From a virus, in IMG/VR virus record IMGVR_UViG_3300005617_000028, positions 32,001-96,000 of that record: a stretch of 64,000 bases of DNA, one strand, 5' to 3'. This document shows positions 2,004 to 56,236 of the stretch, piece by piece. Position numbers and translations under genes: made by a program. A model generated the notes under the pieces. That model saw only the letters and a list, made by a program, of their open reading frames with translations. It did not search any database and had not been told where the DNA came from. The first letter of the stretch is position 1. Every line of letters starts with the position of its first letter.

Positions 2004-3284
2004 ATGGCATCCATCGAAAAGCGCGGTTCTTCTTTCCGGGTCGTCTGGCGGCATAACAGCGCCAAGCAGTCCACGACATGGCCCAATGAAAGACTTGCGT
2101 GGCAGGCCCGGCGGCTGGTTGAGGGCCGTGAGCACCGCGTCACGCCCGATGAGGTCTACGAGATCGTCGGCGGTGTTGAGATTGCTCCGCGCCGGCAGTC
2201 GGTTCTCACCTTTCGGACGTGGAGCGAGATGTGGATGGCCGCTCTGGTACGGCCCGGGGATTCCACCCGAGCCAACTACCAGGCGCAACTCGACCGGCAG
2301 ATACTGCCCGCCATCGGCGAGCTTGCCTTGGTAGACGTTGACGCCATCGCTGTGGCGACGCTGGTCAACAGCCTCAAGGTCAAATTTGCCAACACCACCG
2401 TCACCCGCTACTACGCCGTGCTGTTCCAATGCCTGAATTTCGCGGTCAAGATGGGCAAGATACCCGTCAACCCGTGCTACCAGATCAACTTCAGGCGGGA
2501 CGAACCCGACCAGCTCGACACCAGCGATGAAGATGACGACCACGTCTACCTGACGCTCCAGGAGTACGAACAGATCCTGTCCAACATCCACCCGGCCGAT
2601 CGACCCCTCGTGGAATTCCTGGCCGGGACCGGTTGCCGGATCTCTGAGGCCACCGCGGTAACCGTCTCGGCAATTCGCCTCCACGGCATCGGGCCGCAGG
2701 ATCCAGCTCCCGTCGTGCGTATCCAACAGACTCACAAAGGCGACGGGTCGGGCGGCCGCCGGGTACTGGGTATCCCCAAGGGACGCCGCCGCCGGTGGGT
2801 ATCACTCGGCCAACGTGTCCTTGAGGCCATCGCGCCCGTGCACACTGATCGGAACCCGACAGAATTCCTGTTCACCGCCACAAGGGGCGGCCCCATCAAC
2901 GCCGACAACTGGCGGAATCGGGTCTGGGACAAGGCAGTCGGCGAAGCCCGTCGGTGTCCGCAACACCCTCCCGCACTGCCGCCCCAACCAGTGCGTGGCC
3001 CTCGCCGCCAATGGACCCCCGATGAGGTTTCCACCTGCAACTGCCCCGGCGTCTTGTCACGCCGTCCAACACCCCACGACCTCAGACACTCACACGCCTG
3101 CTGGTTGCTGTCTGAGGGCCACGACCTGCTGTTCGTGTCACGCCGGCTTGGGCATGCCAGCGTCAGCCTGACCGAGCGGGTCTACGGTGGTATCACCCGT
3201 CAGCGTGATAATGAGGCAGCCACGCTGATAGACCGCGCAATGGGAGCTGGGACGCGGCAACGGCGCCTCCTCAGCTCGGTATAG
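2004..3284 (+). CDS. int: Tyrosine integrase
   Basis: N-terminal arm-binding-like MASIEKRGSSFRVVWR; catalytic motifs TGCRISE, HDLRHSHA, LGHAS...RVYG. Confidence 0.95.
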   Translation: MASIEKRGSSFRVVWRHNSAKQSTTWPNERLAWQARRLVEGREHRVTPDEVYEIVGGVEIAPRRQSVLTFRTWSEMWMAALVRPGDSTRANYQAQLDRQILPAIGELALVDVDAIAVATLVNSLKVKFANTTVTRYYAVLFQCLNFAVKMGKIPVNPCYQINFRRDEPDQLDTSDEDDDHVYLTLQEYEQILSNIHPADRPLVEFLAGTGCRISEATAVTVSAIRLHGIGPQDPAPVVRIQQTHKGDGSGGRRVLGIPKGRRRRWVSLGQRVLEAIAPVHTDRNPTEFLFTATRGGPINADNWRNRVWDKAVGEARRCPQHPPALPPQPVRGPRRQWTPDEVSTCNCPGVLSRRPTPHDLRHSHACWLLSEGHDLLFVSRRLGHASVSLTERVYGGITRQRDNEAATLIDRAMGAGTRQRRLLSSV

Positions 3285-5626: not shown

Positions 5627-6163
5627 TCAGGGGGCCAATGGGCGGAGCCGGCGGATGTAGGACGGCTGCCAGCTGATTCCGATGACCGCGCCCTCGGCGT
5701 TGACCGCCGTGTCGTACTGGGACAGCCACATCAGCGAGTACGGCTCAGCCGGCTTGCCGGCCGCGCTAGCGGAGTCCGCAGACGGTACCCACCCGCCGCA
5801 GTCGCAGCCGGGCTTGTCGCAGGACAGCACGCTCACGTCGAACGCCGTGCTCCGGTAGTGGCTCATCTGGCCCGATGCCATCGGGCAGGCCGCCGCGGAG
5901 TACCGGGCGCACTCCGGGTGCATGGCGGGCTCACGGCTCCAGCCCGCCTCAAGCTCGCTGGGCGTCACCAGCGCCACGCACGGCTGCTCCAGGCGCTGAC
6001 CGTCGATCTGGCAGCGCTGGTCGACCACACAGGCGTTTCGCCGGCTGGTGTGGACGTGGCCGAGGACATGGCGGCCGTCGCCGGAGGCCACCGAGATGTA
6101 CGGCACCACCAGGCCGCCGCTCAGTGGCCGGCCGAGCAGGCGGGCGGGAATGTCCGGCATCAT
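5627..6163 (-). CDS. Conserved actinophage-type Cys/His protein
   Basis: GLVVPYI...RCQIDG...EPAMHPECARYSAAACP pattern. Confidence 0.65.
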   Translation of the reverse strand: MMPDIPARLLGRPLSGGLVVPYISVASGDGRHVLGHVHTSRRNACVVDQRCQIDGQRLEQPCVALVTPSELEAGWSREPAMHPECARYSAAACPMASGQMSHYRSTAFDVSVLSCDKPGCDCGGWVPSADSASAAGKPAEPYSLMWLSQYDTAVNAEGAVIGISWQPSYIRRLRPLAP

Positions 6164-6249
6164 CCAGGTATACCCGATCGGGTGAACCTGCACGTCAAAG
6201 GCGCGCGGAGCCGGTCTGAGCGAAAAAACGGAGGCCGGGCAGGTAGTTG

Positions 6250-6753
6250 CTGGTAGTGACGCGACAAGCAGGTCGCACACTCCACTGAGGACGCTGAACC
6301 GTGGACCCATGACCGTACGGCGCTGGCATCCGACAACTGCCCCGGCGGAACGCCGGTAATCAAACCCAAGGCCATCCGGTCCTGGACCCTCAGAAGGTCA
6401 CCTTTACCGGACACCCGAGCAACGGCGCAGTCGTGTAATGGCGAGCCCGGGGCGACACAGGTGGAAGAGACCTGTGGGCTGGAGACGAAAACGAACCGTC
6501 TCCAGTTCTTGACGCCGTTGCTGATCCCGGCCTCGCGGGCTGTGGTGTAACGGCCACAGCAGTCAGGTGAAGCAGCCTGACTGTGCCCGGTGTGACACGG
6601 CCTAAACGCGCCGAGTCAGCACTCTCTCCACCAAGCTCTATGGCATAGCCATGCCCAAGATCGAACCGGGGGGGGGTGTTCTCCAACCACTCAGCTCCCA
6701 GCGGCCAAGCCGAGGCAAGTCAAAAGCACAAGACACTCCACGGTTGGAGCGAA
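6250..6753 (+). ncRNA. Candidate large multi-domain structured ncRNA (about 500 nt)
   Basis: More than 12 nested stems in an intergenic gap, e.g. AGCAACGGCG/CGCCGTTGCT, CTGGAGACG/CGTCTCCAG, CAGTCAGG/CCTGACTG, CTCCAACC/GGTTGGAG; G-U pairs favour the + strand. Confidence 0.7.
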
Positions 6754-6791
6754 CTAATGGTGAACCATGCCCAAAACCGCGGCGGGCTGTG

Positions 6792-7253
6792 ATGGCTCTC
6801 ATCTCCGCTCGTGAGTTCCGGCAGCAGGTGGCCGCCTGGGCCATCAAGGGCCAACGCAAGTTCGAGGTTACCTGCCGGCAACGGTGTGGCCACGACCTCG
6901 TCGTCCGGCTCCGGGTCAACGGTGGCCTGAGCGAACTGGAGCAGGCGGAAAGCCAGCGGTGCGCTCAGTGTTCGGAGCCGGATCCGTTGGGACGCGAGGT
7001 GGTCTATGGGCGGGCCTACGAGGAGGCCAACGCCCGCGCCGCGGAAGCCGGCTTCCCCGCGCTGACCGGTACGCGCAAACAGGTTGGCTGGGCGAACGTG
7101 CTGCGGCTGCGGGCGGTGCGGCTTCATGGCCTTGACGCCATCAAAGACAGCGTGATGGACCGGAAGGAAGCCACCTGGTGGATCGCCCACCGCGACCGCC
7201 TCCGGGATCTGGTTCCGCCGGCGTGGGCGACCGAGTCAGCGGGTCAGCGGTGA
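6792..7253 (+). CDS. Conserved MGE hypothetical protein
   Basis: FPALTGTRKQVGWA...ATWWIAHRD motif typical of a phage/plasmid family. Confidence 0.65.
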   Translation: MALISAREFRQQVAAWAIKGQRKFEVTCRQRCGHDLVVRLRVNGGLSELEQAESQRCAQCSEPDPLGREVVYGRAYEEANARAAEAGFPALTGTRKQVGWANVLRLRAVRLHGLDAIKDSVMDRKEATWWIAHRDRLRDLVPPAWATESAGQR

Positions 7254-7476: not shown

Positions 7477-7716
7477 GTGATCACGCATCCGGCCGCGCCC
7501 GATGTCCGGCCCCACCGGAGCGCGTCGGCGCCCGGTCAGGAGATCACCATCCACACGGACGGCAGGGTCCTGGTGTGGCGCCAGATCGGCTGGCACGGCG
7601 GCTCCGGCGCGTTCTACGCCCTCGGCGAGGACCCGTCGCGGTTTGAGCGGGGCTCGTTCCGGCCGCTGTGGATTCTGGCGGACAACGAGCTGGACGAGTC
7701 TGACGTGTTCGGATGA
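7477..7716 (+). CDS. Hypothetical protein
   Basis: GGAGG RBS, GTGA/ATGA overlaps on both sides. Confidence 0.55.
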   Translation: MITHPAAPDVRPHRSASAPGQEITIHTDGRVLVWRQIGWHGGSGAFYALGEDPSRFERGSFRPLWILADNELDESDVFG

Positions 7717-7955
7717 AGATCAGGGGTGTGGAGATCAACGTGACCGTGAAACTGCCCAAGCCGGATCTGGCGTTTGTCGACCGGTACGCCGCCGCCCGCG
7801 GGCTGACCCGCTCGACGGCGGTGCAACACGCGGTCGCGCAGCTCCGCACCGTCGAGCTGGCCGGCGAATACGAGACAGCGTTCACCGAGTGGCGAGATTC
7901 GGGTGAGGCGGCGGCGTGGGATGCCGTGGTGGCGGACGGGCTGGCCGGCTCATGA
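7713..7955 (+). CDS. mazE: RHH antitoxin, MazE9-like
   Basis: INVTVKLP...TRSTAVQHAV...EYETAFTEW...WDAVVADGL resembles mycobacterial MazE9; overlaps toxin start. Confidence 0.85.
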   Translation: MKIRGVEINVTVKLPKPDLAFVDRYAAARGLTRSTAVQHAVAQLRTVELAGEYETAFTEWRDSGEAAAWDAVVADGLAGS

Positions 7956-8302
7956 TGGCCCGAGGAACGGTCTGGCTGGCCGCGCTGCCGGCGGGCGCCG
8001 ACGGCGAACAGAGCCAGATGCGGTCCGTGGTGGTGGTCAGCAACGAGGCGGCCAACGGCACAGCGCAGCGGCTGGGCCGCGGTGCCGTGAGCGTGGTTCC
8101 GCTCAGCCCGGACGTGGACCACGTGATGTCCTTTCATGTGCTCCTGGACGCCGGGACGGTCGGGCTGCCGTACGCCACCAAGGCGCAGGCGGAGCAGGTC
8201 CGCACCGTCGAGGTGAGCCGGTTGCTGCGGCGGCTGGGCGCATTGACGCCGGCGGCCCGGCTGCAGCTGGACGCGGCCCTGCGGCTGCACCTGGGCCTGT
8301 AG
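7952..8302 (+). CDS. mazF: PemK/MazF family endoribonuclease toxin (MazF9-like)
   Basis: RGTVWL...RSVVVVSN...RLGRG..SVVPL...KAQAEQVRTV...LDAALRLHLGL. Confidence 0.9.
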   Translation: MMARGTVWLAALPAGADGEQSQMRSVVVVSNEAANGTAQRLGRGAVSVVPLSPDVDHVMSFHVLLDAGTVGLPYATKAQAEQVRTVEVSRLLRRLGALTPAARLQLDAALRLHLGL

Positions 8303-28344: not shown

Positions 28345-30867
28345 GTGGCGCACAAGAACTACGGGCTGATCGGCAGCATCGACGAGCTGACCCGGTTCTG
28401 CGACCGCCTCACCCCCGGCGACGGACCGATCTCCTTCGACATCGAAACCGGCTACCTGGGCACCACCGAGCGGGCCAAATTCTCCCTGCATCCGGAAACC
28501 GCCATCGTGGTGGGCATCTCGTTCACCAACTCCACCGACTGGGCCCGCTACATCCCGCTGCGCCACGACGTGGGGGAGAACCTGGACAGCCAGCCGGTGG
28601 CCCGGCTGCTGTGGCCACTGCTGAACAGCGGCCGTGGGGTCGCGCACGGCGCCACGTTCGAGCTACGCCACCTGGCCCGCTGGTTCACCCAGCACCTGGC
28701 CGACGACCCCGAACACGGCCCGGCGGTACGCGCCAACGGCGGCTACTTCCCGCTGCGCTCCGACACCCAGGTGGAGGCGTACCTGGCCGCCGACCACCAG
28801 GAGTTCGGCCTCAAATACCTGACCGAGGCCATCTTCGACCATAAGATGACCGAGCTGGCCGAGCTGTTCCCCGACCTGCCCAAAAACCGGCAGAAGATGC
28901 TGCGGTTCAACACCCTGGAACTGACCCCCCAGGTCATCGACTACGCCTGCGAAGACTCCGCCTGGTGCCTGGCCCTGCACGAGCACTACCACCCGCAGGT
29001 GTGCCGTATGGGCCTGTTCCAGGTGGAGACCGCGGTCCTGCAGGTGGTCTGCGAAATGGAGGAGTTCGGCGTCGTCTACGACTGGGGCTTCATGCGCCGG
29101 GGCGCCGAAGAACTGACCGCGTTCCAGGAACGCTTCAATGCCGAAATCATGACCGAGCTGTCCGAGATGGTCGGCGAGACGGTGGCCATCAACCTGGCCT
29201 CGCCGGCGAAAGTGTCCGCCATCCTCTATGGACAGTTGGGCATGCGCACCTCCGTCTACACCGCCAAGACCCGTGACCTGCCCGCCGACCAGCGCCGGAT
29301 GAGTACCGGCCAGATCGCCCTGGCCACGCTGGCGAAGAAATACCCGGTGGTGAAACGCATCCTCCAGTGGAAGGAAATGACGCGCCTACTCGGGACCTAT
29401 CTGAACTCTTACGAAAAGCAGTACAGTTACGCCGCCGATGGCCGCACCCATCCCCATCACCTGTCCGCGGTGGTGATCACCGGACGATTTGCCGTGGCCG
29501 ATCCGCCGTACCAGCAGAGCCCGAAGATATATCACTTTGATCTGAAAGAGGCCCGCCTCGTTCACGAGGCGCATGCGGAAGCGCACGGCGCCAAATGTCG
29601 CTGCGACGAATACCCGCCGCCGCCCGGGACATGTTTCAAATTCAACTTCCGGGATGCCATCGTCGCGCCGCCCGGGCACTACATCCTTGGCTTCGACCTG
29701 TCCCAGGCGGAGCTGCGCGCCATCGCGGGCGAAGCACAGGAAACCGCCCTGCTCCGCGCGTTCGCCACCGGTCAGGATGTGCACAGCCTCACCGCCGCGC
29801 TGATGCTCAAAATACCCATCGATGAAGTCACCTCCGACTTCCGCGACATGGGAAAGACTTTGAATTTCGCTTTGTTGTACGGCATGGGTGTCAAATCACT
29901 TGCCGACCGGATGGCGATCACTCTGGACGAAGCCCAGTCCCTGTATGACAGCTATTTCCGTGTCTTCTCCAATATCGCCGCGTGGCGGGACAAGCAGATC
30001 CAGCACGGTAAAGCATTCGGCTATGTCACCAGCCGGTTCGGTCGTAAGCTGCCCATCTGGGAATACAAATCAGACAAGCGTTGGATCTACCAGAAAGGCG
30101 ACCGGGCCTGCGTCAACTACCCCATCCAGGGTGCCGCCACCGGGGACATGGTGAAGGCGATGATGGTCCGGGCCCGCATCGCGTTGCGCCGGGCCGGGCT
30201 GCAGGACCGGGTGCACCTGGTGATGAACGTCCACGACGCGCTGGAGTTCTACGTCGACCAAACGGTGCTGCCTCAGCAGGTGATCGGGGTGCTCATGCCC
30301 GCCATCACCATCGACGTACCGGGCTGGCCACCGCTGCATGCCGACTGGCACATCGCCAAACGCTGGGGCAGCCCGGTCAAGATCGAGATCACTGACGACG
30401 GCCGTTACCTGGTGAAAGGCGACTCCGCGGTGCAGGAGCTGTCCCCGGCCGTGGAGGTCGACGACGACACCGGTGAGGAGGATCTGGATCTGGGCGAGAC
30501 GGTCGACGCCGCCGTCATCCGCCAGGCTTTGGCCCTGGTCACCGCCAGCACCGAGGACTCCGCGGCCCGCGACGACGCTGACGGTACGGCCACCGACCAC
30601 AATCCGCGGCGGGTCATCGTCGAACTACCGGAGATGCCGGTACAGGCCGCCTACGGCCAGTTCTGCGCCCTGCTGGCAGAGCGGCCCGGGCCGGATGTGC
30701 TCACCCTGCGCACCCCGGAAGGGGACCTGGACATGGAACTGGAACACGGCACAGACCTGGGGCCCGCCGACGTGGGCGCGGTCGCCATCATCCTCGGCCC
30801 GGTCAGTGTCTTCTACGACGCCGACACCGTCGAGCCGGCTGTGCTGGTGAAAAACCTAGTGCTGTGA
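28345..30867 (+). CDS. polA: Family A DNA polymerase with 3'-5' exonuclease and C-terminal extension
   Basis: ExoI SFDIETG, ExoIII YACEDS, motif A FDLSQAELR, motif B RDMGKTLNFALLYG, NYPIQG, motif C VHDAL. Confidence 0.95.
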   Translation: MAHKNYGLIGSIDELTRFCDRLTPGDGPISFDIETGYLGTTERAKFSLHPETAIVVGISFTNSTDWARYIPLRHDVGENLDSQPVARLLWPLLNSGRGVAHGATFELRHLARWFTQHLADDPEHGPAVRANGGYFPLRSDTQVEAYLAADHQEFGLKYLTEAIFDHKMTELAELFPDLPKNRQKMLRFNTLELTPQVIDYACEDSAWCLALHEHYHPQVCRMGLFQVETAVLQVVCEMEEFGVVYDWGFMRRGAEELTAFQERFNAEIMTELSEMVGETVAINLASPAKVSAILYGQLGMRTSVYTAKTRDLPADQRRMSTGQIALATLAKKYPVVKRILQWKEMTRLLGTYLNSYEKQYSYAADGRTHPHHLSAVVITGRFAVADPPYQQSPKIYHFDLKEARLVHEAHAEAHGAKCRCDEYPPPPGTCFKFNFRDAIVAPPGHYILGFDLSQAELRAIAGEAQETALLRAFATGQDVHSLTAALMLKIPIDEVTSDFRDMGKTLNFALLYGMGVKSLADRMAITLDEAQSLYDSYFRVFSNIAAWRDKQIQHGKAFGYVTSRFGRKLPIWEYKSDKRWIYQKGDRACVNYPIQGAATGDMVKAMMVRARIALRRAGLQDRVHLVMNVHDALEFYVDQTVLPQQVIGVLMPAITIDVPGWPPLHADWHIAKRWGSPVKIEITDDGRYLVKGDSAVQELSPAVEVDDDTGEEDLDLGETVDAAVIRQALALVTASTEDSAARDDADGTATDHNPRRVIVELPEMPVQAAYGQFCALLAERPGPDVLTLRTPEGDLDMELEHGTDLGPADVGAVAIILGPVSVFYDADTVEPAVLVKNLVL

Positions 30868-48797: not shown

Positions 48798-49129
48798 TGG
48801 ATGACGAGGAGGCCGGCCGGCTCGCGCGGGAAGACGGCTACGTGACCTGTGACGAGTGTGGGCACATGATGGAGCGCCACGACACCACGGGCTGTCAGAC
48901 GGCGATTGACGGCGGTTGCCCGTGCCAGGTACGGGTTACGCAGACGGAGATCCGCGCGATACGTGTCCGGTACGGACTGCCGGCCCGGTTCGACCGCAAC
49001 CTCTTGATGCCGTAAGCCACCTGTAGCGCAGACAGGCTACAGCGGCGCGCGACAGCGCTTGACGTAGGTACACCGACGGGTGTACGTTCACCACATCAGC
49101 AAAGCACGGCTACGGAAAGTTGGAGCCAC

Positions 49130-49696
49130 ATGCGCAAGACATGGAATCACGTACCGCCGGAGTCCACCCAGCCCTGTCCCGATGACAATATGAGTATGTG
49201 TGTGATCGGACAGGTCGGAGTCTGGCACGGTGACCGGCGGAAGCTCATTCACACGGAATCGGCTATGGAGATCGCCGCATGGTGGCAGGGTCCGCGCTCG
49301 CCCGGACTCACCGCGTTTGCCAGTACCGGAACCATCACGCCGGACCTGCTACTGGAAATCGCCGCCGCGCGTCGCACGGTGACCGGTGCCGACGGTGACG
49401 ACCTGGACGCGCTGGCGGCCTACGTGCGCGCCGTGGTGATCCTGACAGGCGACGACGCTGCCTACCACGGCGCAGAGGAGACGTGCGACCATTGCACCGA
49501 TTCCGGTTGCCTCTACATGGCCAGCGCGATCACGTTCACAGTCCAGGTGGAGGTAACGCGCGGTTCCGGCCCGTGGCAGGTTACGTCGGCAGTAGCCAGC
49601 GCTCTTGGTGAGGCTATCGCCAACGCGGGCGCCGGAGTTTTCTCCGTGCTGGGTTCTGAGTACTGGACCACGGGCGTACGGTCCCGCCGTGCCTGA
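49130..49696 (+). CDS. Hypothetical early protein
   Basis: Behind the promoter at 49059. Confidence 0.65.
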   Translation: MRKTWNHVPPESTQPCPDDNMSMCVIGQVGVWHGDRRKLIHTESAMEIAAWWQGPRSPGLTAFASTGTITPDLLLEIAAARRTVTGADGDDLDALAAYVRAVVILTGDDAAYHGAEETCDHCTDSGCLYMASAITFTVQVEVTRGSGPWQVTSAVASALGEAIANAGAGVFSVLGSEYWTTGVRSRRA

Positions 49697-49899
49697 TGAG
49701 GTTTGGATCAACGAGTCGCGCGCCGAGATGTGCGAGTGCGGTTGTGACACTGACCTACATGACGTAGTGGAAGTCGATGTTTTCTGTCCCAACTGCGGTG
49801 TGTGGTGCGCGGATGTGAGGGACATCGCTTGACACTGTGAGTACGACAGGCTAGCTTGTGTCTAGCAGGTAGACAGAACGGCTACGGAAAGTAGGAGCC

Positions 49900-50271
49900 A
49901 TGGAAATTCTCGCTTACCACAACGCACGGTCGAACGACGATCGCGATTTCGCCTTTCTCACACACAAGACGGGTGAGCCGGTAGTCCTGGTCTTCCGCAC
50001 CGAAATCCCGGATCAGGATGATCTCGCGGCGTGCGAGTGGGCTTTCCACCTGCTCAACGTTGGCCATGAGGCTTTCGGTACGCCCGATCCGGCAGCCATC
50101 GAGTACCGCGCACGCGGTAACAGGTCACTGTCGGTTGGCGACGTCGTTTCGGTTGACGGTCGGTTCTACGCGGTTGCGTCGTATAGCTGGGCGCCGATCG
50201 ACAAACCGCCGATGGTCGAAACCACTGCGCCGGGCACTACGCCGATCGCGGATACGGCTCTTGACGGGTGA
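49900..50271 (+). CDS. YodL-like domain protein
   Basis: EWAFHLLN...RSLSVGDVVSVDGRFYAV..W. Confidence 0.7.
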   Translation: MEILAYHNARSNDDRDFAFLTHKTGEPVVLVFRTEIPDQDDLAACEWAFHLLNVGHEAFGTPDPAAIEYRARGNRSLSVGDVVSVDGRFYAVASYSWAPIDKPPMVETTAPGTTPIADTALDG

Positions 50272-50336
50272 TGGGCAAGCAGGCTACTGTCTAGCTAGTT
50301 GACAGGCACAACCCAACGGCTAGGGAAGTAGGAGCC

Positions 50337-50672
50337 ATGGAAACTCGCAGCTACGCGGACGGTACATCGATCACAGTCAAGATGCCGTGGTCGGTGTACG
50401 TGAGCGCACGGGTACTCTGTTCGGACGGCAAGGTGCGCGCCACGGCACGGATTGCATTGACGGCCGACACCTTCTTTTCGGTGCCGTGCGCGGTTAAGGT
50501 TTCCGGCCGGACGGTTTCCGGTTACCTCACAGTGGAGACGCGCGAGGGAATGTCTACCGAAACCACGGATGATCCGGCCGTCGTTAAGTTCATCGCGTGC
50601 GGCAAGAACGCCGACGCGCTGCCGACCGGTGCCTACGTCGTACCCGCCACGGTTTCATCGGCGGTTTCCTGA
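50337..50672 (+). CDS. Small early protein
   Basis: Behind the promoter at 50261; ADTFFSVP motif. Confidence 0.7.
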   Translation: METRSYADGTSITVKMPWSVYVSARVLCSDGKVRATARIALTADTFFSVPCAVKVSGRTVSGYLTVETREGMSTETTDDPAVVKFIACGKNADALPTGAYVVPATVSSAVS

Positions 50673-50987
50673 TGGGCGCCACACGGCAGCGTTTCACGCC
50701 GGCCGAGCGCTCGGCCCTGCTGATCGGCGCGGACATCGAATGGCGCCACGGTTCTCGGTGGTACGCCGGAACGGTTTCCGGCCCGATTACCACGGATGAA
50801 ATCGGTGCGCAGTACGTACCGGTTACGCACACAATCAAGAGCCCAACGGTTTCACCCGGAGGGATGCGCGGTTACCCGAAACAGATTCGCGTGCTGGCGG
50901 TTTGACACGGGTTTCAGCTCTTGACTTAGGTTCACTACGGTGTGTACGTTCATGCCACACAACCAAACGGCTACGGAAGTAGGAGCC

Positions 50988-51428
50988 ATGTCAAGTACCC
51001 GTATCGGCGTAGCGTACGGCCCGATTCACAACGGTCGACAGAACACGTACGCGGTTTACCGCGTCAACGTGGACGCGACGGTAACCGTTGAACACACCGG
51101 TCACCGTGAGGGTACGACCATGGTCGGGCTGCCGTTGGGCGGGCCCGGGTGGCGGCCGCCGACACGGTTCGATAGCGACATCGATCACTTCGTTGAGATC
51201 ACGTTTCTCCGCCACTGTGGCGAGATGCCATCGCACATCGGCTCGCGCGCCATGGCTGGCATCGATCAGGCAACCGACAGCGACGGCGTACGGGTGCGTG
51301 AGTGCACCGGCCGGTACGGCACGCTAGACGGGCCGCACAGTACGTACGGTGCCACGGTCCGATGGGATGATGGCTCGCGGTTCTACGTGGACTCTGCGTG
51401 CCTGTGGCGGGTCCCATCGGCCCTGTAG
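50988..51428 (+). CDS. Small early protein
   Basis: Behind the promoter at 50921. Confidence 0.65.
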   Translation: MSSTRIGVAYGPIHNGRQNTYAVYRVNVDATVTVEHTGHREGTTMVGLPLGGPGWRPPTRFDSDIDHFVEITFLRHCGEMPSHIGSRAMAGIDQATDSDGVRVRECTGRYGTLDGPHSTYGATVRWDDGSRFYVDSACLWRVPSAL

Positions 51429-51440
51429 CGTGGACACGCT

Positions 51441-51471
51441 AGGCCCGGTCGGTACGCCCGGCCGGGCCTTT
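51441..51471 (+). terminator. Hairpin terminator
   Basis: AGGCCCGGTCGG/CCGGCCGGGCCT followed by TT. Confidence 0.65.
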
Positions 51472-51484
51472 GCCGTCGCTGCCC

Positions 51485-51710
51485 GCTTGCACGCTGCCGC
51501 TCGCCTGTCCGCTTGCACGCTGCCGCTTGCACGCTGCCGCTCGCCTGTCCGCTCGCACGCTGCCGCTCGCCTGTCCGCTCGCACGCTGCCGCTCGCACGC
51601 TGCCGCTCGCACGCGCACGCACGCCTGTCCGCTCGCACGCCTGTCCGCTCGCACGCGCACGCACGCTGCCGCTCGCACGCTGCCGCTCGCCTGTCCGCTC
51701 GCACGCTGCC
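51485..51710. repeat. Mixed tandem repeat of 14-bp GCT(C/T)GCACGCTGCC and 12-bp GCTCGCCTGTCC units
   Basis: About 15 units read directly; strongly C-skewed; intergenic. Confidence 0.95.
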
Positions 51711-51813
51711 GGCTCGCCTCGCTAGCTAGAAATTATTGCTACTTGACTCGCCAGAGACGCACAGGCTACTGTCTACCTAGTTGACACCACGGCTACGGAA
51801 CATGGGAGCTATC

Positions 51814-52836
51814 ATGACTGCCGAAATGACTCGATTCGCCCGATCGCTGGACAGTACGGAATTTCAGCCGTTGAACGGCAGGCGTGACCCGTTCGATCTA
51901 CTGTCCAGTGTGAGTGCCAACGTTGGCGACGCACAGACCATGATGGAAACGGCCGGCGTACTCGGTTGGTCGCCGGAAATGATTCCGCTATCCGGAATGG
52001 ATAGCGTCGGCAACATGTACGAAACTCCGGCCAGCAATTACGGAATCGTCGTACCGACCTATCCGACAGGTCCGGCCTATTTCGGTCAGGCTCACAAGGA
52101 TTTCAAATTCATCCGTCCGGAAGCGTTGCATCCGCTGATCGACGCGATTGTCGCGCACGGCAATCCGCTCACGGGGATTATTCCGGGCCCGGTTACCCGA
52201 TTCGTCTTCGATTCTAAACTGATCGACATCACGCCGTATAGCAAGGCAGCGGCTGAGAACATCGGCGAAATTATCCGTGTGCGCTGGCAACTGGACCTCG
52301 GCAACACTGGCAAGAATTCCCTTGTCATTGGCCAGAAGGGTATGCGTCTAATCTGCGCGAATGGGGTGAGTACGGCTTCGTCAATGGGTAGCGTGTCGAT
52401 CTCGCATAGCAATCTCGCGCCGGGCAAGATCGCTGCCACGGTCGATCGGATCATGAGTCAGGGAAACATCGGACTCGATAAGTGGATTACGGACGCTCGC
52501 CAGACGATCAACGCTCGCTTGACACTGGACGGAGCACTCGCACTGTGGGCGGATCTGTTCTCATGGACTGACGACAAGGACGGGCGCGCGCTCACCACAC
52601 AAGACTCGCAGCGTGCGACGCTTACCCAGCTCTGGCGGTCCCCTACCCAGACGATCACGTACCCGGAAACAGCGTGGGCGTTTTTCGGCGCGACAACCGA
52701 ATACCTCGACCATGAGGCGACCGTCCGATTTGGTGGCGACACTCGTGAGCGTGCGCTCGCACGTCGGGTAGTCGAGTCCGCTCCGGCCGTCGAGTCCGTC
52801 AAGAATCGCGCATGGGAGATGGCGCTAGCCGTCTAG
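51814..52836 (+). CDS. DUF932 (TIGR03299-type) phage/plasmid protein
   Basis: ETAGVLGW, FGQAHKDF, MRLICANG, SISHS, TAWAFFGATTEYLDH. Confidence 0.8.
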   Translation: MTAEMTRFARSLDSTEFQPLNGRRDPFDLLSSVSANVGDAQTMMETAGVLGWSPEMIPLSGMDSVGNMYETPASNYGIVVPTYPTGPAYFGQAHKDFKFIRPEALHPLIDAIVAHGNPLTGIIPGPVTRFVFDSKLIDITPYSKAAAENIGEIIRVRWQLDLGNTGKNSLVIGQKGMRLICANGVSTASSMGSVSISHSNLAPGKIAATVDRIMSQGNIGLDKWITDARQTINARLTLDGALALWADLFSWTDDKDGRALTTQDSQRATLTQLWRSPTQTITYPETAWAFFGATTEYLDHEATVRFGGDTRERALARRVVESAPAVESVKNRAWEMALAV

Positions 52837-52994
52837 GCAACGCGCACGGGTGAGGCGAGGGGACAGTCCCCTCGCCTCGCTCTTGTTTGTCATACGTACG
52901 TTGTTCGTTTGACTTAGGTACAGCACGGATGCTAGTTTGACATCTCAACCAAACGGCCACGGATAATCGGGCCCAGAGCAAAGGATCAGCCATC

Positions 52995-53327
52995 ATGGAT
53001 GTCAACGCTACGTGGTCAGAAATTCTCGCCATCCTGTCGCAGCCGATGACATCGGAAAACGCAGACCGGCTCGAAGAGCTTGCCTACGCGCTTGACGGTT
53101 GGCTTGCGCGTGGCGGTTACGCTCCCGGTACTTGGCCGGTAGGCACACTCGGGTACTACCGCCACGCATGCGCTTACGGTGAGTCGGTAGGCATGTCCGA
53201 TGGCGAGTGCGTCACGTACGCCGCATGGTTCGTGGCGGAATGGGCAACCGACATCGACACAGACACGGATCACACTCGCGAGGTAGTGCGCTTCCGTCGG
53301 ATCATGAGCGTCGCCACGGTCGTCTAG
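52995..53327 (+). CDS. Small early protein (C-domain paralog of 53754..54155)
   Basis: RHACAYGE..MSDGEC.TYAAWF...HTREV. Confidence 0.7.
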   Translation: MDVNATWSEILAILSQPMTSENADRLEELAYALDGWLARGGYAPGTWPVGTLGYYRHACAYGESVGMSDGECVTYAAWFVAEWATDIDTDTDHTREVVRFRRIMSVATVV

Positions 53328-53344
53328 CCCGTACGCCGCAACGC

Positions 53345-53381
53345 GGAACCGCGCCACCCAAACCATGGGTGGCGCGGTTTC
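53345..53381 (+). terminator. Hairpin terminator (duplicated at about 54175-54208)
   Basis: CGCGCCACCCA/TGGGTGGCGCG followed by GTTT. Confidence 0.75.
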
Positions 53382-53444
53382 TGTATCTGCCCTACATCTG
53401 TAGTCTGTTTGACTTAGGTACCCTCGCCACGGTACCGTGCGCCT

Positions 53445-53654
53445 ATGAGTCGTGATACCGCAGAGAACCGCGCCGCGTACGTCCGTGGTTGGGCTGCGTC
53501 CGTTCGCCACGCAGAAGGCGCCTTAGAACGCGCCGATGATCGTGGCGAAATCGGCGCATGGTACGACGGATATCTCGACTACGCAGCCGATCGGCCGAAG
53601 TGGCACACGCTGCGTTGCCTAAGCGATAACCACGACACGTGCGACACGCCTTAA
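53445..53654 (+). CDS. Small leaderless early protein
   Basis: ATG 6 nt after -10 TACCGT. Confidence 0.65.
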   Translation: MSRDTAENRAAYVRGWAASVRHAEGALERADDRGEIGAWYDGYLDYAADRPKWHTLRCLSDNHDTCDTP

Positions 53655-53753
53655 ATCTGTACCTCGTTTGACTTAGGTACTCTCGCCACGGTACGTTGAC
53701 ATCTCAACCAAACGGCCACGCATAATCGGCCACGCGCTACGGAGGTTCCACCC

Positions 53754-54155
53754 ATGGTCAGCTACTCCACAGATGAGATGATCAACATTCTGCGTTCCGG
53801 CCACGGCTACTCGCCAGACGACGTTACGTCGGTCCTAGATCAACTCATCTCGGCCGGACTGGACACTGTGACCGAGAATGAGGCTAGCGGCTACACGTTC
53901 ACTGTCGATGAATTGCGTACCGCGTTGCTGCAGCTCATCGCACGGGTACCTATGGCGCTGCAGTCGTGGCTTTGGCGCCACGCATACTACTACGCCGAGG
54001 TAGTTCATCACATGTACGCCGATGAGTGTGAGGCGTACGCGGAGTGGTTCACGCTGCGATACGCCGACCCGTTGACACTGACCACGGCTATCTGTCACTC
54101 ACGCGAGGTTCCGGTATGGCGCGCCACGGTACCGACCATGGTCACGCTCGGCTAG
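53754..54155 (+). CDS. Small early protein (C-domain paralog of 52995..53327)
   Basis: RHAYYYAE..MYADECEAYAEWF...HSREV; GGAGG RBS. Confidence 0.7.
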   Translation: MVSYSTDEMINILRSGHGYSPDDVTSVLDQLISAGLDTVTENEASGYTFTVDELRTALLQLIARVPMALQSWLWRHAYYYAEVVHHMYADECEAYAEWFTLRYADPLTLTTAICHSREVPVWRATVPTMVTLG

Positions 54156-54279
54156 CCGCTTACGCCGCAACGCGGAACGCGCCACCCAACCATGGGTGGC
54201 GCGGTTTTCGTATGTCCGGCCGACGTGACCACAGAAACAGCGCTTTCCGCCGACTTCCCGATTCTCCCAGAAAAGCCAA

Positions 54280-55200
54280 GAGGCCCGTAGAGCCGATCGC
54301 TACCCGTTGTCTGTCGGGATGGTAAGCCCATCCCTGCCTACCCTGCCCGATCGCTGCCCTACGGACACCACAGAGGCTCTGGCGACCCATCCTCCGGACC
54401 ATGGGTCCCCAACCGATGATGTGACCTCTGTACCGTCCGGCTACTCGTGGCCAACTCGGCCAATCATCAGGGAACCGCGTGCGCTCACGTACCCGTACCG
54501 CGTAGCCGGCTAACCGTCGGGACCGCTTACGTACCCGTGCGACTGTGAACCGCTAGCCGGTACCCGTACGGTCAGCACACGTGGCAGTCACCTTCAGTTG
54601 GGGCTTACTGTCAGAATCGCTGGCCACGCTCATTCGCACGCTGATCGATCCGAGCATGTCCGGCTAGTCCGAGCCTGACTGTATCGCGTCCCAGAGTCCA
54701 TTTCTGCCAGATCGACGCTACCGGCTCAGAACGGCTACAGGGTCCACGGGTACCAACTTGGCATGCTGGACCGCGTATGGGCCTCTGTGGCTGTCGCAAG
54801 CCCTACCGTGGCGCGGTTCGTACCCTGCCAATCGGGAGCGTGGCTTGCCATTCTGAACATGGGTGACCGATCGGTCGGGTACGTGACCTAGCGTCCGATA
54901 TTGTCGGCAATCCCTTACGCCGCAACGGATGTAGCCTCGCCACGACGCTTGCGCTCCATAAAGGACGTTGAGTGGATCATGCGAAAACGCTAGTTGATCT
55001 TTCCTACCCGATCCAGCACCAGACAAGATCAACCCATGCCCGAAAGCCCGATCACGCTGATCCGTGGGCACCTATGATCGGGCAGGCTTTCGGGCAGGGT
55101 CGGAACAGGACCTATCGGCTGCTAGAGCGACGCTTGCCATGGGTGCCCAGAGGTACGCTTTTGGGCATGGCTATCTGTGCGCAATTCCTGTAGCGTCACG
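54280..55200. other. About 0.9 kb largely non-coding, hairpin-rich segment
   Basis: GGGATGG/CCATCCC, ACAGAGG/CCTCTGT, CCGGCTAC/GTAGCCGG, GTTGATCTT/AAGATCAAC, TGCCCGAAAGCC/GGCTTTCGGGCA. Confidence 0.55.
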
Positions 55201-55249
55201 GGTAGCGCGCACCCATCGGAACGCGCACCGGTCACGGAAGTAGGGACCC

Positions 55250-55399
55250 ATGGACGAACAATGCGAGTACGGGGACTGTGTCTCAGAGGACGGCTACGGC
55301 ACGTGCGAGGGATGCGGCCACCCGATGTCGGTTGATCACTCGCCTGTGAGCGTGCGCAGCACGTGCGAAGACGCTCCCTGTTGCGGATGTTGCTCATGA
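55250..55399 (+). CDS. 49-aa Cys-rich phage peptide (not in the ORF track)
   Basis: MDEQCEYGDC...CEDAPCCGCCS; leader GGAAGTAGGGACCCATG resembles the cassette leaders. Confidence 0.65.
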   Translation: MDEQCEYGDCVSEDGYGTCEGCGHPMSVDHSPVSVRSTCEDAPCCGCCS

Positions 55400-55590
55400 G
55401 CGCGACACGGCACAGTTGCGGCGGGCCCGTGTTCGGTCGCCTCACCGATGGTTGCCCGCGTTGCGACGAACTGAGGGATGGCGCCACGCCCATCAAGGTC
55501 ACGTGGTACGACGCGCCACGCTACAGCGGCGGGCCCGTGCACCGGTGCTCGGGTACCTGCCCTAGGACGTGCACCGGTGGTGACTGGTGA
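55396..55590 (+). CDS. Small Cys-rich actinophage protein
   Basis: HSCGGPVFGRLTDGCPRCDEL...CTGGDW; ATGA coupling. Confidence 0.7.
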   Translation: MSATRHSCGGPVFGRLTDGCPRCDELRDGATPIKVTWYDAPRYSGGPVHRCSGTCPRTCTGGDW

Positions 55591-55609
55591 GCCGCTAGCG
55601 CGTACGCGC

Positions 55610-55639
55610 ACGGGCCCGAGGAGCGCTCCTCGGGCCCGT
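55610..55639. terminator. Perfect 30-bp palindrome (terminator or cruciform)
   Basis: ACGGGCCCGAGGAGCGCTCCTCGGGCCCGT is its own reverse complement. Confidence 0.75.
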
Positions 55640-55807
55640 TCGTGCGTCCGGACCATCGGCTGATCGGTCGGCAAATTCTGACCGCTCGGCCTATTGACTT
55701 TCCGCATATGGGGGTATTCGGACATGGCTCCGGCCGGGTCAAATTTTTTCCGCCTGGCTACGTAGCCCAAGAATTTTCTGGAATTTCTACGGATTTCCCA
55801 GAACCAT

Positions 55808-56036
55808 CAAGATCCACTAAAGACCGGCTAACAAGATCCACTAAAGACAGCGTGCGGTGAGGCTTCCCCGTACGGAGCCCGCGGTGAGCCCCGCCGGTGA
55901 GAGCCTCGGTACGAACACCAGACGGCGCCGGCGAGCTAACAAGATCCACTATCGGTAGCAACACGGGGATTTTGCGCGCAATCAAGATCATCTGGATCCT
56001 GGCTCCGCGGGCTGGCAGAAACTCGGATCAAGATCG
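55808..56036. repeat. Direct repeats CAAGATCCACTA (x3) plus CAAGATC partial copies (x2)
   Basis: Full copies at about 55808, 55832, 55940; TCAAGATC at about 55982 and 56028. Confidence 0.8.
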
Positions 56037-56236
56037 TTTTTCAGGATTCCGCTACGGGGTACCAGCGCCGACACTTTGACGGGGGAAAGGGGCCCCGCGG
56101 AGGTCTACCGGGAGGGGTCCCGGTAATGTGGGGGCGAAGCCGGGCAAGATACCGCGAAACGACACCGTAAAACGGCCTGAGATGGCCGTAGAGCCACGAA
56201 AACGGCTCCGGGGTGGTGACGGGAAGGGTGTGGGGC

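What the first reader, a model, noticed from the sequence alone, without database searches (positions are those of the whole stretch)
6250..6753. Candidate ~500-nt multi-domain structured ncRNA
Seen: domain 1 closed by CTGGTA-GTGAC (6250-6260)/GTCAC-CTT-TACCGG (6397-6410) with GCGAC/GTCGC, CTGAGG/CCTCAG, GACCG/CGGTC, CCGGCG/CGCCGG and a possible alternative pairing TCCAC/GTGGA. Domain 2 closed by ACACC/GGTGT with AGCAACGGCG/CGCCGTTGCT (6418-6522), CACAGGT/ACCTGTG, CTGGAGACG/CGTCTCCAG, GCTGTGG/CCACAGC, CAGTCAGG/CCTGACTG. Then the G-U-rich AGCACTCTCTCC/GGGGGGGGTGTT and CTCCAACC/GGTTGGAG. It starts just after an AAAAC..GGTAG promoter-like motif. I do not recognise RNase P, tmRNA, intron or riboswitch signatures. 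Established: phages carry large ornate RNAs of unknown function (GOLLD, ROOL). Inference: possibly a new class.
Basis: partly seen in the sequence, partly recalled or inferred. Interest (0 to 1): 0.85.

Follow-up and report, generated by a model that had tools for sequence, protein, structure and literature searches.

The report
Orphan hairpin-rich non-coding gap, actinophage
A 625-base gene-free stretch in a large virus of soil actinobacteria folds into an unusually dense cluster of hairpins, most likely as RNA, but no relative of it was found anywhere, so calling it a new RNA class remains unproven.

Summary
The stretch lies in a 625-nt non-coding gap (6167-6791) between two divergent genes of a 129-kb actinophage-like virus record. 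Only part of it is more structured than chance. The core 6412-6600 has z -4.7 on + and -3.6 on - (0 of 200 shuffles each), lower than all 129 background windows sampled from the same genome. "Domain 1" (6250-6410) and the 3' tail (6681-6791) are within chance.

Indirect signs favour a + strand RNA: unpaired bases are 41-45% A against 12-13% U, one G-U helix folds only on +, and no + strand terminator stands before the next gene.

It matches no Rfam family, even at E<=10. No homologue was found by blastn, nhmmer, a covariance model or motif scans. The searches covered about 220 fetched loci, 14 virus records (9 of them PolA relatives) and two 401-genome samples of Actinomycetes. No RNA run holds it.

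Covariation and transcription are therefore untested. The gap sits in a roughly 21-kb accessory region that the nearest relative lacks.

Verdict: a real, unusual, lineage-specific structured non-coding element, probably a long leader RNA. "New ornate RNA class" is neither shown nor refuted.

The parts
6167..6791 (.). Non-coding gap between divergent genes
   Evidence: GC3 periodicity is lost over 6180-6790, and A is 21-26% against T 12-17% on +. No Pfam hit in the internal ORFs or open stretches scanned. Single copy in the 129-kb record.
6412..6600 (+). Structured core, the only part clearly beyond chance
   Evidence: MFE -95.2 kcal/mol against a shuffle mean of -73.3; z -4.69, 0 of 200 shuffles. 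The - strand gives z -3.60. This is below all 129 background windows of the genome.
6418..6522 (+). Multi-branch domain: a 10-bp closing helix around hairpins at 6431-6444, 6456-6476 and 6477-6507
   Evidence: I4 is 10/10 bp. Helix pairing probabilities are 0.92-0.99. z is -5.81.
6536..6589 (+). Twin hairpins (6541-6558 and 6559-6584) closed by CGGGC/GCCCG
   Evidence: z is -4.79 on + and -3.30 on -. Pairing probabilities are 0.78-0.96. G-U or U-G pairs extend the stems on + only.
6619..6679 (+). G-U-rich 11-bp helix (GCACUCUCUCC/GGGGGGGGUGU) around a small hairpin
   Evidence: z is -2.03 on + and +0.10 on -. It contains the only G/C run of 8 or more in the genome, G9 at 6668-6676. One contig of run X6 (depth 2.5) reads T>G at 6677.
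6231..6239 (+). 5' arm of the long-range 9-bp helix GAGGCCGGG/CCCGGCCUC
   Evidence: I9 is 9/9 bp. Pairing probability is 0.83.
6526..6534 (+). 3' arm of the long-range 9-bp helix
6250..6410 (+).
   Evidence: The helices exist, but z is -1.89 (+) and -1.43 (-), and the whole-gap MFE uses other pairings. Not beyond chance.
6223..6228 (.). A6 tract (U6 on the - strand) at the left edge of the structured stretch
   Evidence: It is one of only two A6 runs and one T6 run in 129 kb. On the - strand it follows the 9-bp closing helix.
6165..6190 (.). 26-bp palindrome, operator-like, at the start of the leftward gene
   Evidence: I2 has 13-nt arms, 85% complementary, with no spacer. On the - strand a TTGACG lies 20 nt upstream of TATACC and the ATG (read; inference).
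5627..6166 (-). Left flanking gene: 179-aa Cys-rich protein of unknown function
   Evidence: 34 proteins at E<=0.001, one of them its own cluster at 100% identity; 9 of the 11 invariant columns are Cys, Pro or Gln. No Pfam or PHROG hit.
6792..7253 (+). Right flanking gene: 153-aa protein (CGH..CxxC..LPxLxGSxKQVxWAxxIR..WWIxNR family)
   Evidence: Coding periodicity starts near 6790. Of the 68 proteins at E<=0.001, 67 are remote homologues and one is the protein itself. Weak phrog_16123 hit.

Best explanation
The gap most likely encodes a lineage-specific structured RNA read from the + strand. Its most probable form is the long 5' leader of the rightward operon that starts at 6792 (153-aa protein, small ORFs, RHH-MazF pair).

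The functional part would be the roughly 190-nt core, 6412-6600. It consists of a multi-branch domain closed by a 10-bp helix, followed by a twin hairpin. It may be extended by the G-U helix 6619-6679.

Inferred mechanism, not shown: the hairpin cluster is a cis-acting platform, for protein binding, processing, stability or antitermination, that sets how much transcription or translation reaches the accessory genes downstream.

Shown: the stretch is non-coding, its folding is exceptional, and its composition is strand-asymmetric.

Inferred: that it is transcribed, which strand is read, its role as a leader, and its mode of action.
For: - Non-coding.
- Core z is -4.69 (0 of 200 shuffles), below all 129 genome background windows, whose minimum of -3.39 is the tRNA window.
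- Four perfect hairpins lie in 128 nt; 1 of 1000 shuffles reaches that count.
- The hairpins have different arms and 7-9-nt loops, and they nest inside 5-, 9- and 10-bp closing helices. That is an RNA-like hierarchy, not an operator array.
- Strand evidence: z is better on + for every significant piece (whole gap -3.28 against -1.99; core -4.69 against -3.60). Helix 6619-6679 folds only on +. Unpaired bases are 41-45% A and 12-13% U.
- Leader rather than stand-alone RNA: no + strand terminator-like site in 6000-7000, and the last structured helix ends 112 nt before the ATG.
- The genome's own terminator-like hairpins look different: 11-14-bp stems, 3-5-nt loops and T-rich tails.
Against: - No homologue was found in any search, so there is no covariation.
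- Nine related phage records (PolA 38-62% identical) show neither the element nor a model match. In the five closest that were also checked for the flanking genes, only one holds a partial copy of the left gene.
- No canonical promoter lies on either strand, although this phage does use TTGACT-N18-TAGGTT promoters elsewhere.
- Perfect Watson-Crick palindromes fold equally well on both strands and as DNA; the - strand core still has z -3.6.
- Weak promoter-like hexamers next to both flanking start codons (read) would leave the core outside both mRNAs.
- Domain 1 and the tail are within chance.
Confidence: 0.4

Rival explanations
1. It has no dedicated function. It would be a hairpin-rich spacer in a fast-changing accessory region, for example decayed palindromic or MITE-like insertions or leftovers of recombination joints, tolerated because it lies between two promoters.
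For: - Orphan status in every search listed above.
- It lies in about 21 kb (record 25.3-46.0 kb) with no collinear counterpart in the nearest relative G410.
- A 9-bp perfect inverted repeat brackets 286 nt.
- Domain 1 and the tail are within chance.
- No promoter or + strand terminator was found.
Against: - The core's z of -4.7 lies outside the whole genome background.
- The element is single-copy in the phage, and no copy was found in either 401-genome sample of Actinomycetes. A mobile repeat would normally recur.
- The A over T asymmetry, concentrated in unpaired positions, is not expected of neutral DNA.
- I saw no target-site duplication on reading the flanks.
Confidence: 0.25
2. It acts at the DNA level, or through RNA together with DNA. 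It would be a replication origin or a regulatory region. One such reading is an RNA-primed origin like the roughly 600-bp non-coding, transcribed ori of extrachromosomal cluster A mycobacteriophage prophages, or like a ColE1 RNA II-type primer extended by the phage's own Pol I-type polymerase.
For: - Wetzel et al. [quoted passage not shown]
- The Alma ori (613 bp, 62% GC) has the same gross features as this gap: 4 perfect hairpins of at least 7 bp, and z -4.6 and -4.4.
- The phage encodes a family A polymerase.
- The genome's only G9 run lies at the 3' side of the + strand structure. The link between G-rich RNA and stable R-loops is recalled knowledge.
- A local turn of cumulative GC skew lies about 2.5 kb away. 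This is weak.
Against: - No sequence or covariance-model similarity to the Alma ori.
- This phage has an integrase and no ParB_N or ParA-type AAA_31 match, so it does not need a prophage plasmid origin.
- No iterons or tandem repeats.
- No AT-rich unwinding stretch: GC is 59-64% in 240-nt windows lying within the gap.
- The GC-skew profile of the genome is multi-phasic and uninformative.
Confidence: 0.2
3. It is a structured RNA read from the - strand. It would be either an independent ncRNA or an attenuator-type leader of the leftward operon, ending at the U6 tract (6228-6223) that follows the 9-bp closing helix.
For: - On the - strand the closing helix GAGGCCGGG/CCCGGCCUC is followed by CG and then UUUUUU, and runs of 6 A or T are very rare in this genome (3 in 129 kb).
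- Both terminator-like sites in 6000-7000 are on the - strand.
- The - strand core still has z -3.60.
- The U6 tract lies 57 nt upstream of the start of the leftward gene.
Against: - z is weaker on - for every piece.
- Helix 6619-6679 is lost on - (z +0.10).
- Unpaired bases would be 41-45% U and 12-13% A, which is unusual for structured RNAs (general knowledge).
- The helix before the U6 tract is long-range, with 286 nt inside it, not a local terminator hairpin.
- No - strand promoter was found to the right of the core.
Confidence: 0.15

Closest known systems
GOLLD and ROOL large ornate RNAs (Rfam families; Weinberg et al. 2017, PMC5737381, passages read)
   Same: A large non-coding element in phage or prophage DNA with a tRNA gene in the neighbourhood (tRNA-Arg 4.6 kb away). 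It has several hairpins and at least one multistem junction, and its function is unknown.
   Different: - No match to either covariance model, even at E<=10.
- The host clade is Actinomycetes-like and the DNA is 62-66% GC.
[quoted passage not shown]
- GOLLD and ROOL are defined by widespread, covarying homologues. This element has none.
RNA-based replication origins of extrachromosomal cluster A mycobacteriophage prophages (Alma, LadyBird, RedRock, Gladiator, Et2Brutus; Wetzel et al. 2020, PMC7157519)
   Same: - A non-coding stretch of about 600 bp in an actinophage, placed in the lysogeny module.
- About 62% GC, 4 perfect hairpins of at least 7 bp, and z about -4.5 in Alma, against 4 hairpins and z -3.3 to -4.7 here.
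- These origins also diverge fast: 41-71% nucleotide identity among the five (Table 4).
   Different: - No sequence or model similarity.
- Those origins sit beside parABS in integrase-less phages. This phage has an integrase and no ParA or ParB match.
- Their transcription and replication function were shown by experiment. Nothing has been shown here.
ColE1 RNA II primer (recalled from general knowledge, not looked up)
   Same: A structured RNA of about 500 nt with several stem-loops, whose G-rich part helps form a persistent RNA-DNA hybrid that DNA polymerase I extends. Here a G9 run follows the structure and the phage has a Pol I-type enzyme.
   Different: No antisense RNA I-like partner, RNase H site or origin has been identified. 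The resemblance is purely by analogy.
Cis-acting antitermination RNAs of phage early operons (lambda nut, HK022 put; recalled, not looked up)
   Same: Hairpins placed between an early promoter region and the first genes of a phage operon.
   Different: Those elements are about 15-70 nt with defined motifs. Here the core is about 190 nt, no boxA/boxB-like motif was recognised, and no downstream terminators were mapped.

Membership tests
Any Rfam 15 family (including GOLLD, ROOL, HEARO, OLE, raiA, riboswitches, ribozymes, RNase P, tmRNA, introns) | A match to the family covariance model | tested here: not met
   At gathering thresholds over the whole window, only the tRNA at 1534-1606 matched. 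At E<=10 with permissive filters on 6100-6900 there were 0 matches. ARAGORN found only tRNA-Arg.
GOLLD / ROOL | Homologues in several taxa with covarying helices | tested here: not met
   No homologue in any search.
GOLLD / ROOL | Located in a phage or prophage, often near tRNA genes | tested here: met
   The window is part of a virus record. A tRNA-Arg lies at 1533-1606 and an integrase at 2004-3284. The context is loose, at 4.6 kb.
RNA-based prophage replication origin (Wetzel et al. 2020) | A non-coding region of about 600 bp with no required ORF | tested here: met
   A 625-nt gap without coding signal.
RNA-based prophage replication origin (Wetzel et al. 2020) | It lies beside parABS in a phage that lacks an integrase | tested here: not met
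   An integrase is present. PF02195 (ParB_N) and PF13614 (AAA_31) gave 0 matches in the 129-kb record, while the controls did match.
RNA-based prophage replication origin (Wetzel et al. 2020) | [quoted passage not shown] | not testable with these tools
   No RNA run holds the stretch. Replication needs an experiment.
RNA-based prophage replication origin (Wetzel et al. 2020) | Sequence or structure similarity to a known member (Alma ori) | tested here: not met
   blastn against the phage collection gave no match. Model R1 gave no hit on L146, the Alma region. Only gross statistics are alike.
Protein-coding gene or pseudogene | Codon periodicity or homology in some frame | tested here: not met
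   No GC3 periodicity. Pfam found nothing at E<=10 in 8 of the 12 open stretches of at least 50 aa listed, apart from one 13.7-bit noise hit. Three short blastn hits, all to 6518-6549, fall in two genes of unrelated translated sequence and a third whose product was not examined.
Operator / iteron array (DNA-binding sites) | The same motif repeated several times | tested here: not met
   The four hairpins have different arms. There are no tandem repeats and only 2-copy short direct repeats. CAGGT/ACCTG occurs 7 times in the gap, against a genome mean of 2.8 per 625 nt and a 99th percentile of 8. The palindrome 6165-6190 is a separate, operator-like site.

The most novel reading that the evidence does not exclude
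The core 6412-6600, with the flanking long-range helix and the G-U/G9 helix, is a genuine new structured RNA carried by an accessory island of a family of roughly 125-140-kb actinophages. It would be either a trans-acting ncRNA or an RNA II-like primer or origin that works with the phage's own Pol I-type polymerase. Its relatives would be hidden in contigs that I could not fetch, namely those encoding the 57-81% identical Cys-rich proteins P0003-P0009.
Probability: 0.15. Interest if true: 0.6.

Novelty: new member of a known kind. Interest (0 to 1): 0.3.

Why it matters
If it is transcribed and functional, it would add an actinophage example to the short list of large structured phage RNAs. 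It might also be a second, unrelated case of RNA-based replication or expression control in actinophage lysogeny modules.

As things stand it is one orphan sequence. Its value is as a well-delimited candidate: the 190-nt core is the part to test.

Tried and rejected
Known RNA families: Rfam and ARAGORN gave nothing.

Sequence homology:
- blastn against the phage and plasmid collections gave none.
- blastn and nhmmer against the 88 loci L002-L089 gave a best E of 0.09 over 22 nt.
- The first five handles (two bacterial genomes, three virus records) gave a best E of 0.04.
- A class-level sample of 401 genomes gave 2 hits (E 3.7e-4 and 7.3e-4). An order-level sample of 401 genomes, overlapping the first, gave 1 hit (E 7.3e-5).
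- All three hits fall on the same 27-50 nt (6505-6554). Two lie inside coding sequences of unrelated translated sequence: one translates ..YTTAREAGIDFFDHADIYG.. and another ..TAREADISN... I did not examine the protein context of the third. I read all three as chance.

Covariance model R1 of 6412-6600:
- No hit below E 0.1 in window + L002-L100 (best 16.2 bits) or in the 33 loci (best E 0.69).
- In the 25 loci the best new hit has E 0.11. L131 also scores there (27.2 bits), but it is the hit found again.
- Five virus records carrying the Cys-rich gene gave a best E of 0.11.
- The 9 PolA-related records gave a best E of 0.16.
- Of 151 Actinomycetes genomes, one gave a hit at E 0.004 per genome. 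It lies inside a 449-aa ORF and most of the model is deleted in it, so I read it as chance.

Motif scans of IMG/VR: these returned 14 and 21 loci, none with an R1 hit at the motif.

Route by flanking genes:
- The 153-aa protein, the integrase and PolA, each used as a single query, gave no close relatives in viral contigs.
- The Cys-rich family gave 20, 68 and 30 loci. Among the 23 loci examined, the gene usually sits inside a co-directional operon.
- The 153-aa family gave 32 remote loci.

Route by phage relatives: 9 PolA-related records were found. The element was not detected in any of them. Of the five closest, 1 has a partial Cys-rich gene and 0 have the 153-aa gene.

Sequencing runs: 8 were listed and 6 hold part or all of the stretch. 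All are DNA from rhizosphere metagenomes; no RNA holder is listed. The contigs that lie on the gap in X3, X4 and X5 are identical to it, and the X6 contig differs at one base, T>G at 6677 (depth 2.5). That leaves no useful variation.

Operator idea: the half-site of the 6165-6190 palindrome, and the motifs GGTGAACC and CCATGCCCAA, do not recur as a set in the genome. CAGGT enrichment is mild.

Internal duplication: GTGTAAYGG occurs at 6433 and 6545, and GCCCGGNGNGACAC at 6445 and 6585. Both motifs are unique to the gap, but the order of the modules differs and my rough odds do not exclude chance.

Promoters: none was found. A k-mer search of upstream regions instead turned up the TAGACAC operator modules elsewhere in the genome.

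Origin of replication: GC skew is uninformative.

Other leads: ESM Atlas on the 153-aa protein returned only unnamed clusters. Look-ups of earlier findings gave no relative.

The contigs of the closest Cys-rich homologues (P0003-P0009, 57-81% identical) could therefore not be inspected, although that was the most promising source of covariation. Supplementary files of the papers were not seen. Fig. S1 and Table S1 of PMC7157519 may bear on the structure of the ori RNAs.
Full report
WHAT AND WHERE. The window is bases 32001-96000 of a 129,139-bp IMG/VR virus record, which CheckV estimates to be 96% complete. The DNA is about 66% G+C.

The record carries phage genes:
- a family A DNA polymerase at 28345-30867, a UvsX-like recombinase and an endolysin;
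- a sigma factor;
- a tyrosine integrase at 2004-3284, with a weak HTH_17 excisionase-like ORF behind it;
- tRNA-Arg(UCU) at 1533-1606 on the - strand.

The finding lies in a gap between two divergent genes. On the left is a 179-aa Cys-rich protein (5627-6166, - strand). On the right is a 153-aa protein (6792-7253, + strand), followed by small ORFs and an RHH/MazF pair at 7713-8302.

The start of the left gene is fixed by an alignment of the protein with 32 of its homologues. The start of the right gene is fixed by the onset of codon periodicity and by its homologues. The gap is therefore 6167-6791, or 625 nt.

The gap is non-coding:
- The GC3 signal of 0.8-0.9 seen in neighbouring genes collapses to 0.54-0.70 in all three phases between about 6180 and 6790.
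- Three internal ORFs or ORF extensions have no Pfam hit.
- Of the 12 stop-free stretches of at least 50 aa listed, I scanned 8 at E<=10. The only hit was a 13.7-bit noise match.

Folding is unusual:
- The gap holds four perfect hairpins (7, 9, 7 and 8 bp; loops of 7-9 nt) within 128 nt. Dinucleotide shuffles average 0.39, and 1 of 1000 reaches four.
- Among 152 such hairpins in the genome, this is the tightest cluster.

The signal is not spread over the claimed 500 nt. With 200 shuffles per piece:
- The tail 6681-6791 has z -0.22.
- The core 6412-6600 has z -4.69 (+) and -3.60 (-).
- Its two parts have z -5.81/-5.44 (6418-6522) and -4.79/-3.30 (6536-6589).
- The G-U helix 6619-6679 has z -2.03 on + and +0.10 on -.

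As a genome-specific control I folded 129 windows of 189 nt spaced 1 kb apart, on the + strand with 30 shuffles each. Their mean z was -0.37, the sd 1.10 and the minimum -3.39. The lowest window is the one containing the tRNA, and none reached -4.

The core is therefore a real outlier, but the well-supported structure is about 190-270 nt.

RNA OR DNA, AND WHICH STRAND? Perfect palindromes fold on both strands and as DNA, so these statistics alone cannot decide.

Evidence for an RNA-type architecture:
- The hairpins have unrelated arm sequences and long non-palindromic loops.
- They nest within 5-, 9- and 10-bp closing helices with pairing probabilities of 0.78-0.99.
- There are no tandem repeats or iterons.

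Evidence for the + strand:
- z is lower on + for the whole gap (-3.28 against -1.99) and for each significant piece.
- The 11-bp helix 6619-6679 has four G-U pairs and exists only on +.
- G-U pairs also extend two of the perfect stems on +.
- The gap has A 23% against T 15%, the strongest A over T bias among the 19 gaps I tabulated.
- Predicted unpaired positions are 41-45% A and 12-13% U. This is the usual signature of structured RNAs (general knowledge).

Evidence for the - strand:
- Both terminator-like sites in 6000-7000 are on -.
- On -, the 9-bp closing helix is followed by CG and then U6.
- Runs of six A or T occur only three times in 129 kb.

No canonical promoter was found on either strand. 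TANNNT occurs 0 times on + and once on - in 6050-6850. Yet the phage has clear TTGACT-N18-TAGGTT promoters with TAGACA operators elsewhere.

On reading the sequence, TTGACG-N20-TATACC lies just upstream of the leftward ATG and spans the 26-bp palindrome 6165-6190. This suggests a repressible, near-leaderless leftward promoter, which would leave the core outside the leftward mRNA. That step is inference.

No + strand terminator separates the core from the ATG at 6792. If the core is read on +, it would therefore be a leader rather than a free-standing RNA.

SEARCH FOR RELATIVES. This was the main effort, and it failed throughout.
- No Rfam family matched, even at E<=10.
- No blastn match in 50,697 phage or 72,556 plasmid records.
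- The element is single-copy in its own genome.
- Through the Cys-rich protein (34 proteins at E<=0.001, one of them its own cluster) I fetched 20 viral, 68 genomic and 30 metagenomic loci. None shows nucleotide similarity to the gap (run on the first 88 loci). In most of the 23 loci inspected, the gene is preceded by co-directional genes rather than a gap.
- The 153-aa protein was alone in the word-indexed search. It has 67 remote HMMER relatives plus itself, 68 proteins in all at E<=0.001. The 32 viral loci that encode relatives have no match to the model.
- The single-sequence covariance model of the core (64 base pairs) found only itself (236.6 bits). Elsewhere it gave nothing better than 16 bits in the fetched loci. 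It gave nothing in five virus records with the Cys-rich gene.
- In 151 Actinomycetes genomes, R1 gave one 27-bit hit. About 0.6 such hits are expected by chance across 151 genomes. The hit lies within a 449-aa ORF and lacks most of the model.
- PolA homologues show that this phage belongs to a clade found on contigs of about 120-140 kb, with PolA 55-68% identical. Nine IMG/VR records of that wider group (38-62% identity) were found. None has a DNA or model match.
- Of the five closest of those records, only one has a partial Cys-rich gene and none has the 153-aa gene.
- tblastx against the nearest record, G410, shows collinearity on both sides: own 13.4-25.3 kb with G410 0.2-18.9 kb, then own 46.1 kb with G410 20.0 kb. 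Nothing collinear exists for own 25.3-46.0 kb. The tRNA, integrase, gap, toxin-antitoxin pair and PAPS reductase thus form an accessory region of about 21 kb.
- blastn of the gap against two samples of 401 Actinomycetes genomes gave three short hits, all to 6505-6554. Two lie inside coding sequences of unrelated translated sequence, and I did not examine the protein context of the third. I read them as chance.
- The DNA occurs in six rhizosphere metagenome runs. The contigs of X3, X4 and X5 that lie on the gap are identical to it, and the X6 contig differs at one base, T>G at 6677 in a low-depth contig. No RNA run holds it.

COMPARISON WITH WHAT IS KNOWN. GOLLD and ROOL share the phage and tRNA context and the unknown function (PMC5737381, passages read). 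Membership fails on the model match and on the existence of covarying homologues.

The nearest functional analogue I found in print is the RNA-based origin of extrachromosomal cluster A mycobacteriophage prophages (PMC7157519; outline, abstract and sections 7, 10, 11 and 15 read). [quoted passage not shown] They diverge quickly, with 41-71% identity among the five studied.

The Alma origin (JN699005 26448-27060) has the same gross statistics as this gap: 613 bp, 62% GC, four perfect hairpins, and z -4.6 and -4.4. There is no sequence or model similarity. This phage also has an integrase and no ParA or ParB match. It may work in a similar way, but it is not a member of that group.

The comparisons with ColE1 RNA II and with the nut and put elements are recalled from general knowledge only.

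VERDICT. There is a real structural outlier of about 190 nt, inside a genuine 625-nt non-coding gap.

My probabilities for the readings are:
- + strand structured RNA, probably a long leader of the rightward accessory operon: 0.40.
- No dedicated function: 0.25.
- DNA-level or RNA-primed origin, or a regulatory region: 0.20.
- - strand RNA: 0.15.

"New class of large ornate RNA" is not supported by any comparative or expression evidence, and it cannot be excluded. Interest is modest at 0.3. The element is an orphan, but it is well delimited and cheap to test.

Noticed in passing
window 42742, 43513, 44902, 47242, 47711, 49870 (+ strand); also 50293 and 51775 (- strand): A repeated promoter-operator module: TTGAC(T/A), about 18 nt, TAGGTT/TATGTT/TAGATT, then an inverted repeat (G/C)TGTCTA-N5-6-TAGACA(C/G). 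It looks like one repressor's operator set in front of many small genes.
   Followed up: no
window 6165-6190: A 26-bp palindrome, CAGGTATACCCGA/TCGGGTGAACCTG, overlaps the start of the Cys-rich gene. It lies between a - strand TTGACG and TATACC. It is probably the operator of the leftward promoter.
   Followed up: partly
window 6668-6676 and 6223-6228: The only G/C run of 8 or more in 129 kb (G9) and one of only three A6/T6 runs bracket the structured stretch. One low-depth contig of run X6 reads T>G at 6677, which would lengthen the G run.
   Followed up: partly
G000 record 25.3-46.0 kb (window about -6.7 kb to 14 kb): About 21 kb holding tRNA-Arg, integrase, the gap, RHH-MazF and a PAPS-reductase-like gene has no collinear counterpart in the nearest relative G410 (PolA 62% identical). 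It appears to be an accessory lysogeny and moron island.
   Followed up: partly
window 5627-6166 (-): A Cys-rich protein family of 165-210 aa. Invariant columns include CQ, C, Y, CP, C and CxC. It is found in prophage-like regions of many Actinomycetes (68 GTDB species loci) and in 3 mycobacteriophage records (Sparky, Farewell). It has no Pfam or PHROG family. Neighbours include amidoligase, GATase, DprA-like and RusA genes.
   Followed up: partly
window 6792-7253 (+): A 153-aa protein of an unnamed family with the motifs CGH..CxxC..LPxLxGSxKQVxWAxxIR..WWIxNR. It has 67 remote homologues, some of them in longer proteins. It has only a weak phrog_16123 hit.
   Followed up: partly
window 49016-56212: A 7.2-kb stretch in which no ORF passed my GC3-based filter. 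It holds the genome's strongest terminator-like hairpins: 11-14-bp stems at 52852, 53347, 54178 and 55610, two of which share the arm CGCGCCACCCA.
   Followed up: no
window 6277-6303 and 6733-6769: A bipartite direct repeat, ACACTCCAC...TGAACC(G/A)TG, occurs near the 5' side of the gap and again just upstream of the 6792 start. The 9-mer AACCGTGGA (6297) is complementary to TCCACGGTT (6737) (D11, D12, I11).
   Followed up: no
window 7713-8302: An RHH antitoxin-like ORF (weak RHH_1 hit) overlaps a PemK/MazF-like toxin ORF (E 8e-16) in the rightward operon downstream of the gap.
   Followed up: no
PolA homologues of window 28345-30867: Several PolA homologues in the clade are 1110-1460 aa long and carry PF14528 (LAGLIDADG_3), which suggests inteins. 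The window's own copy (840 aa) has none.
   Followed up: no
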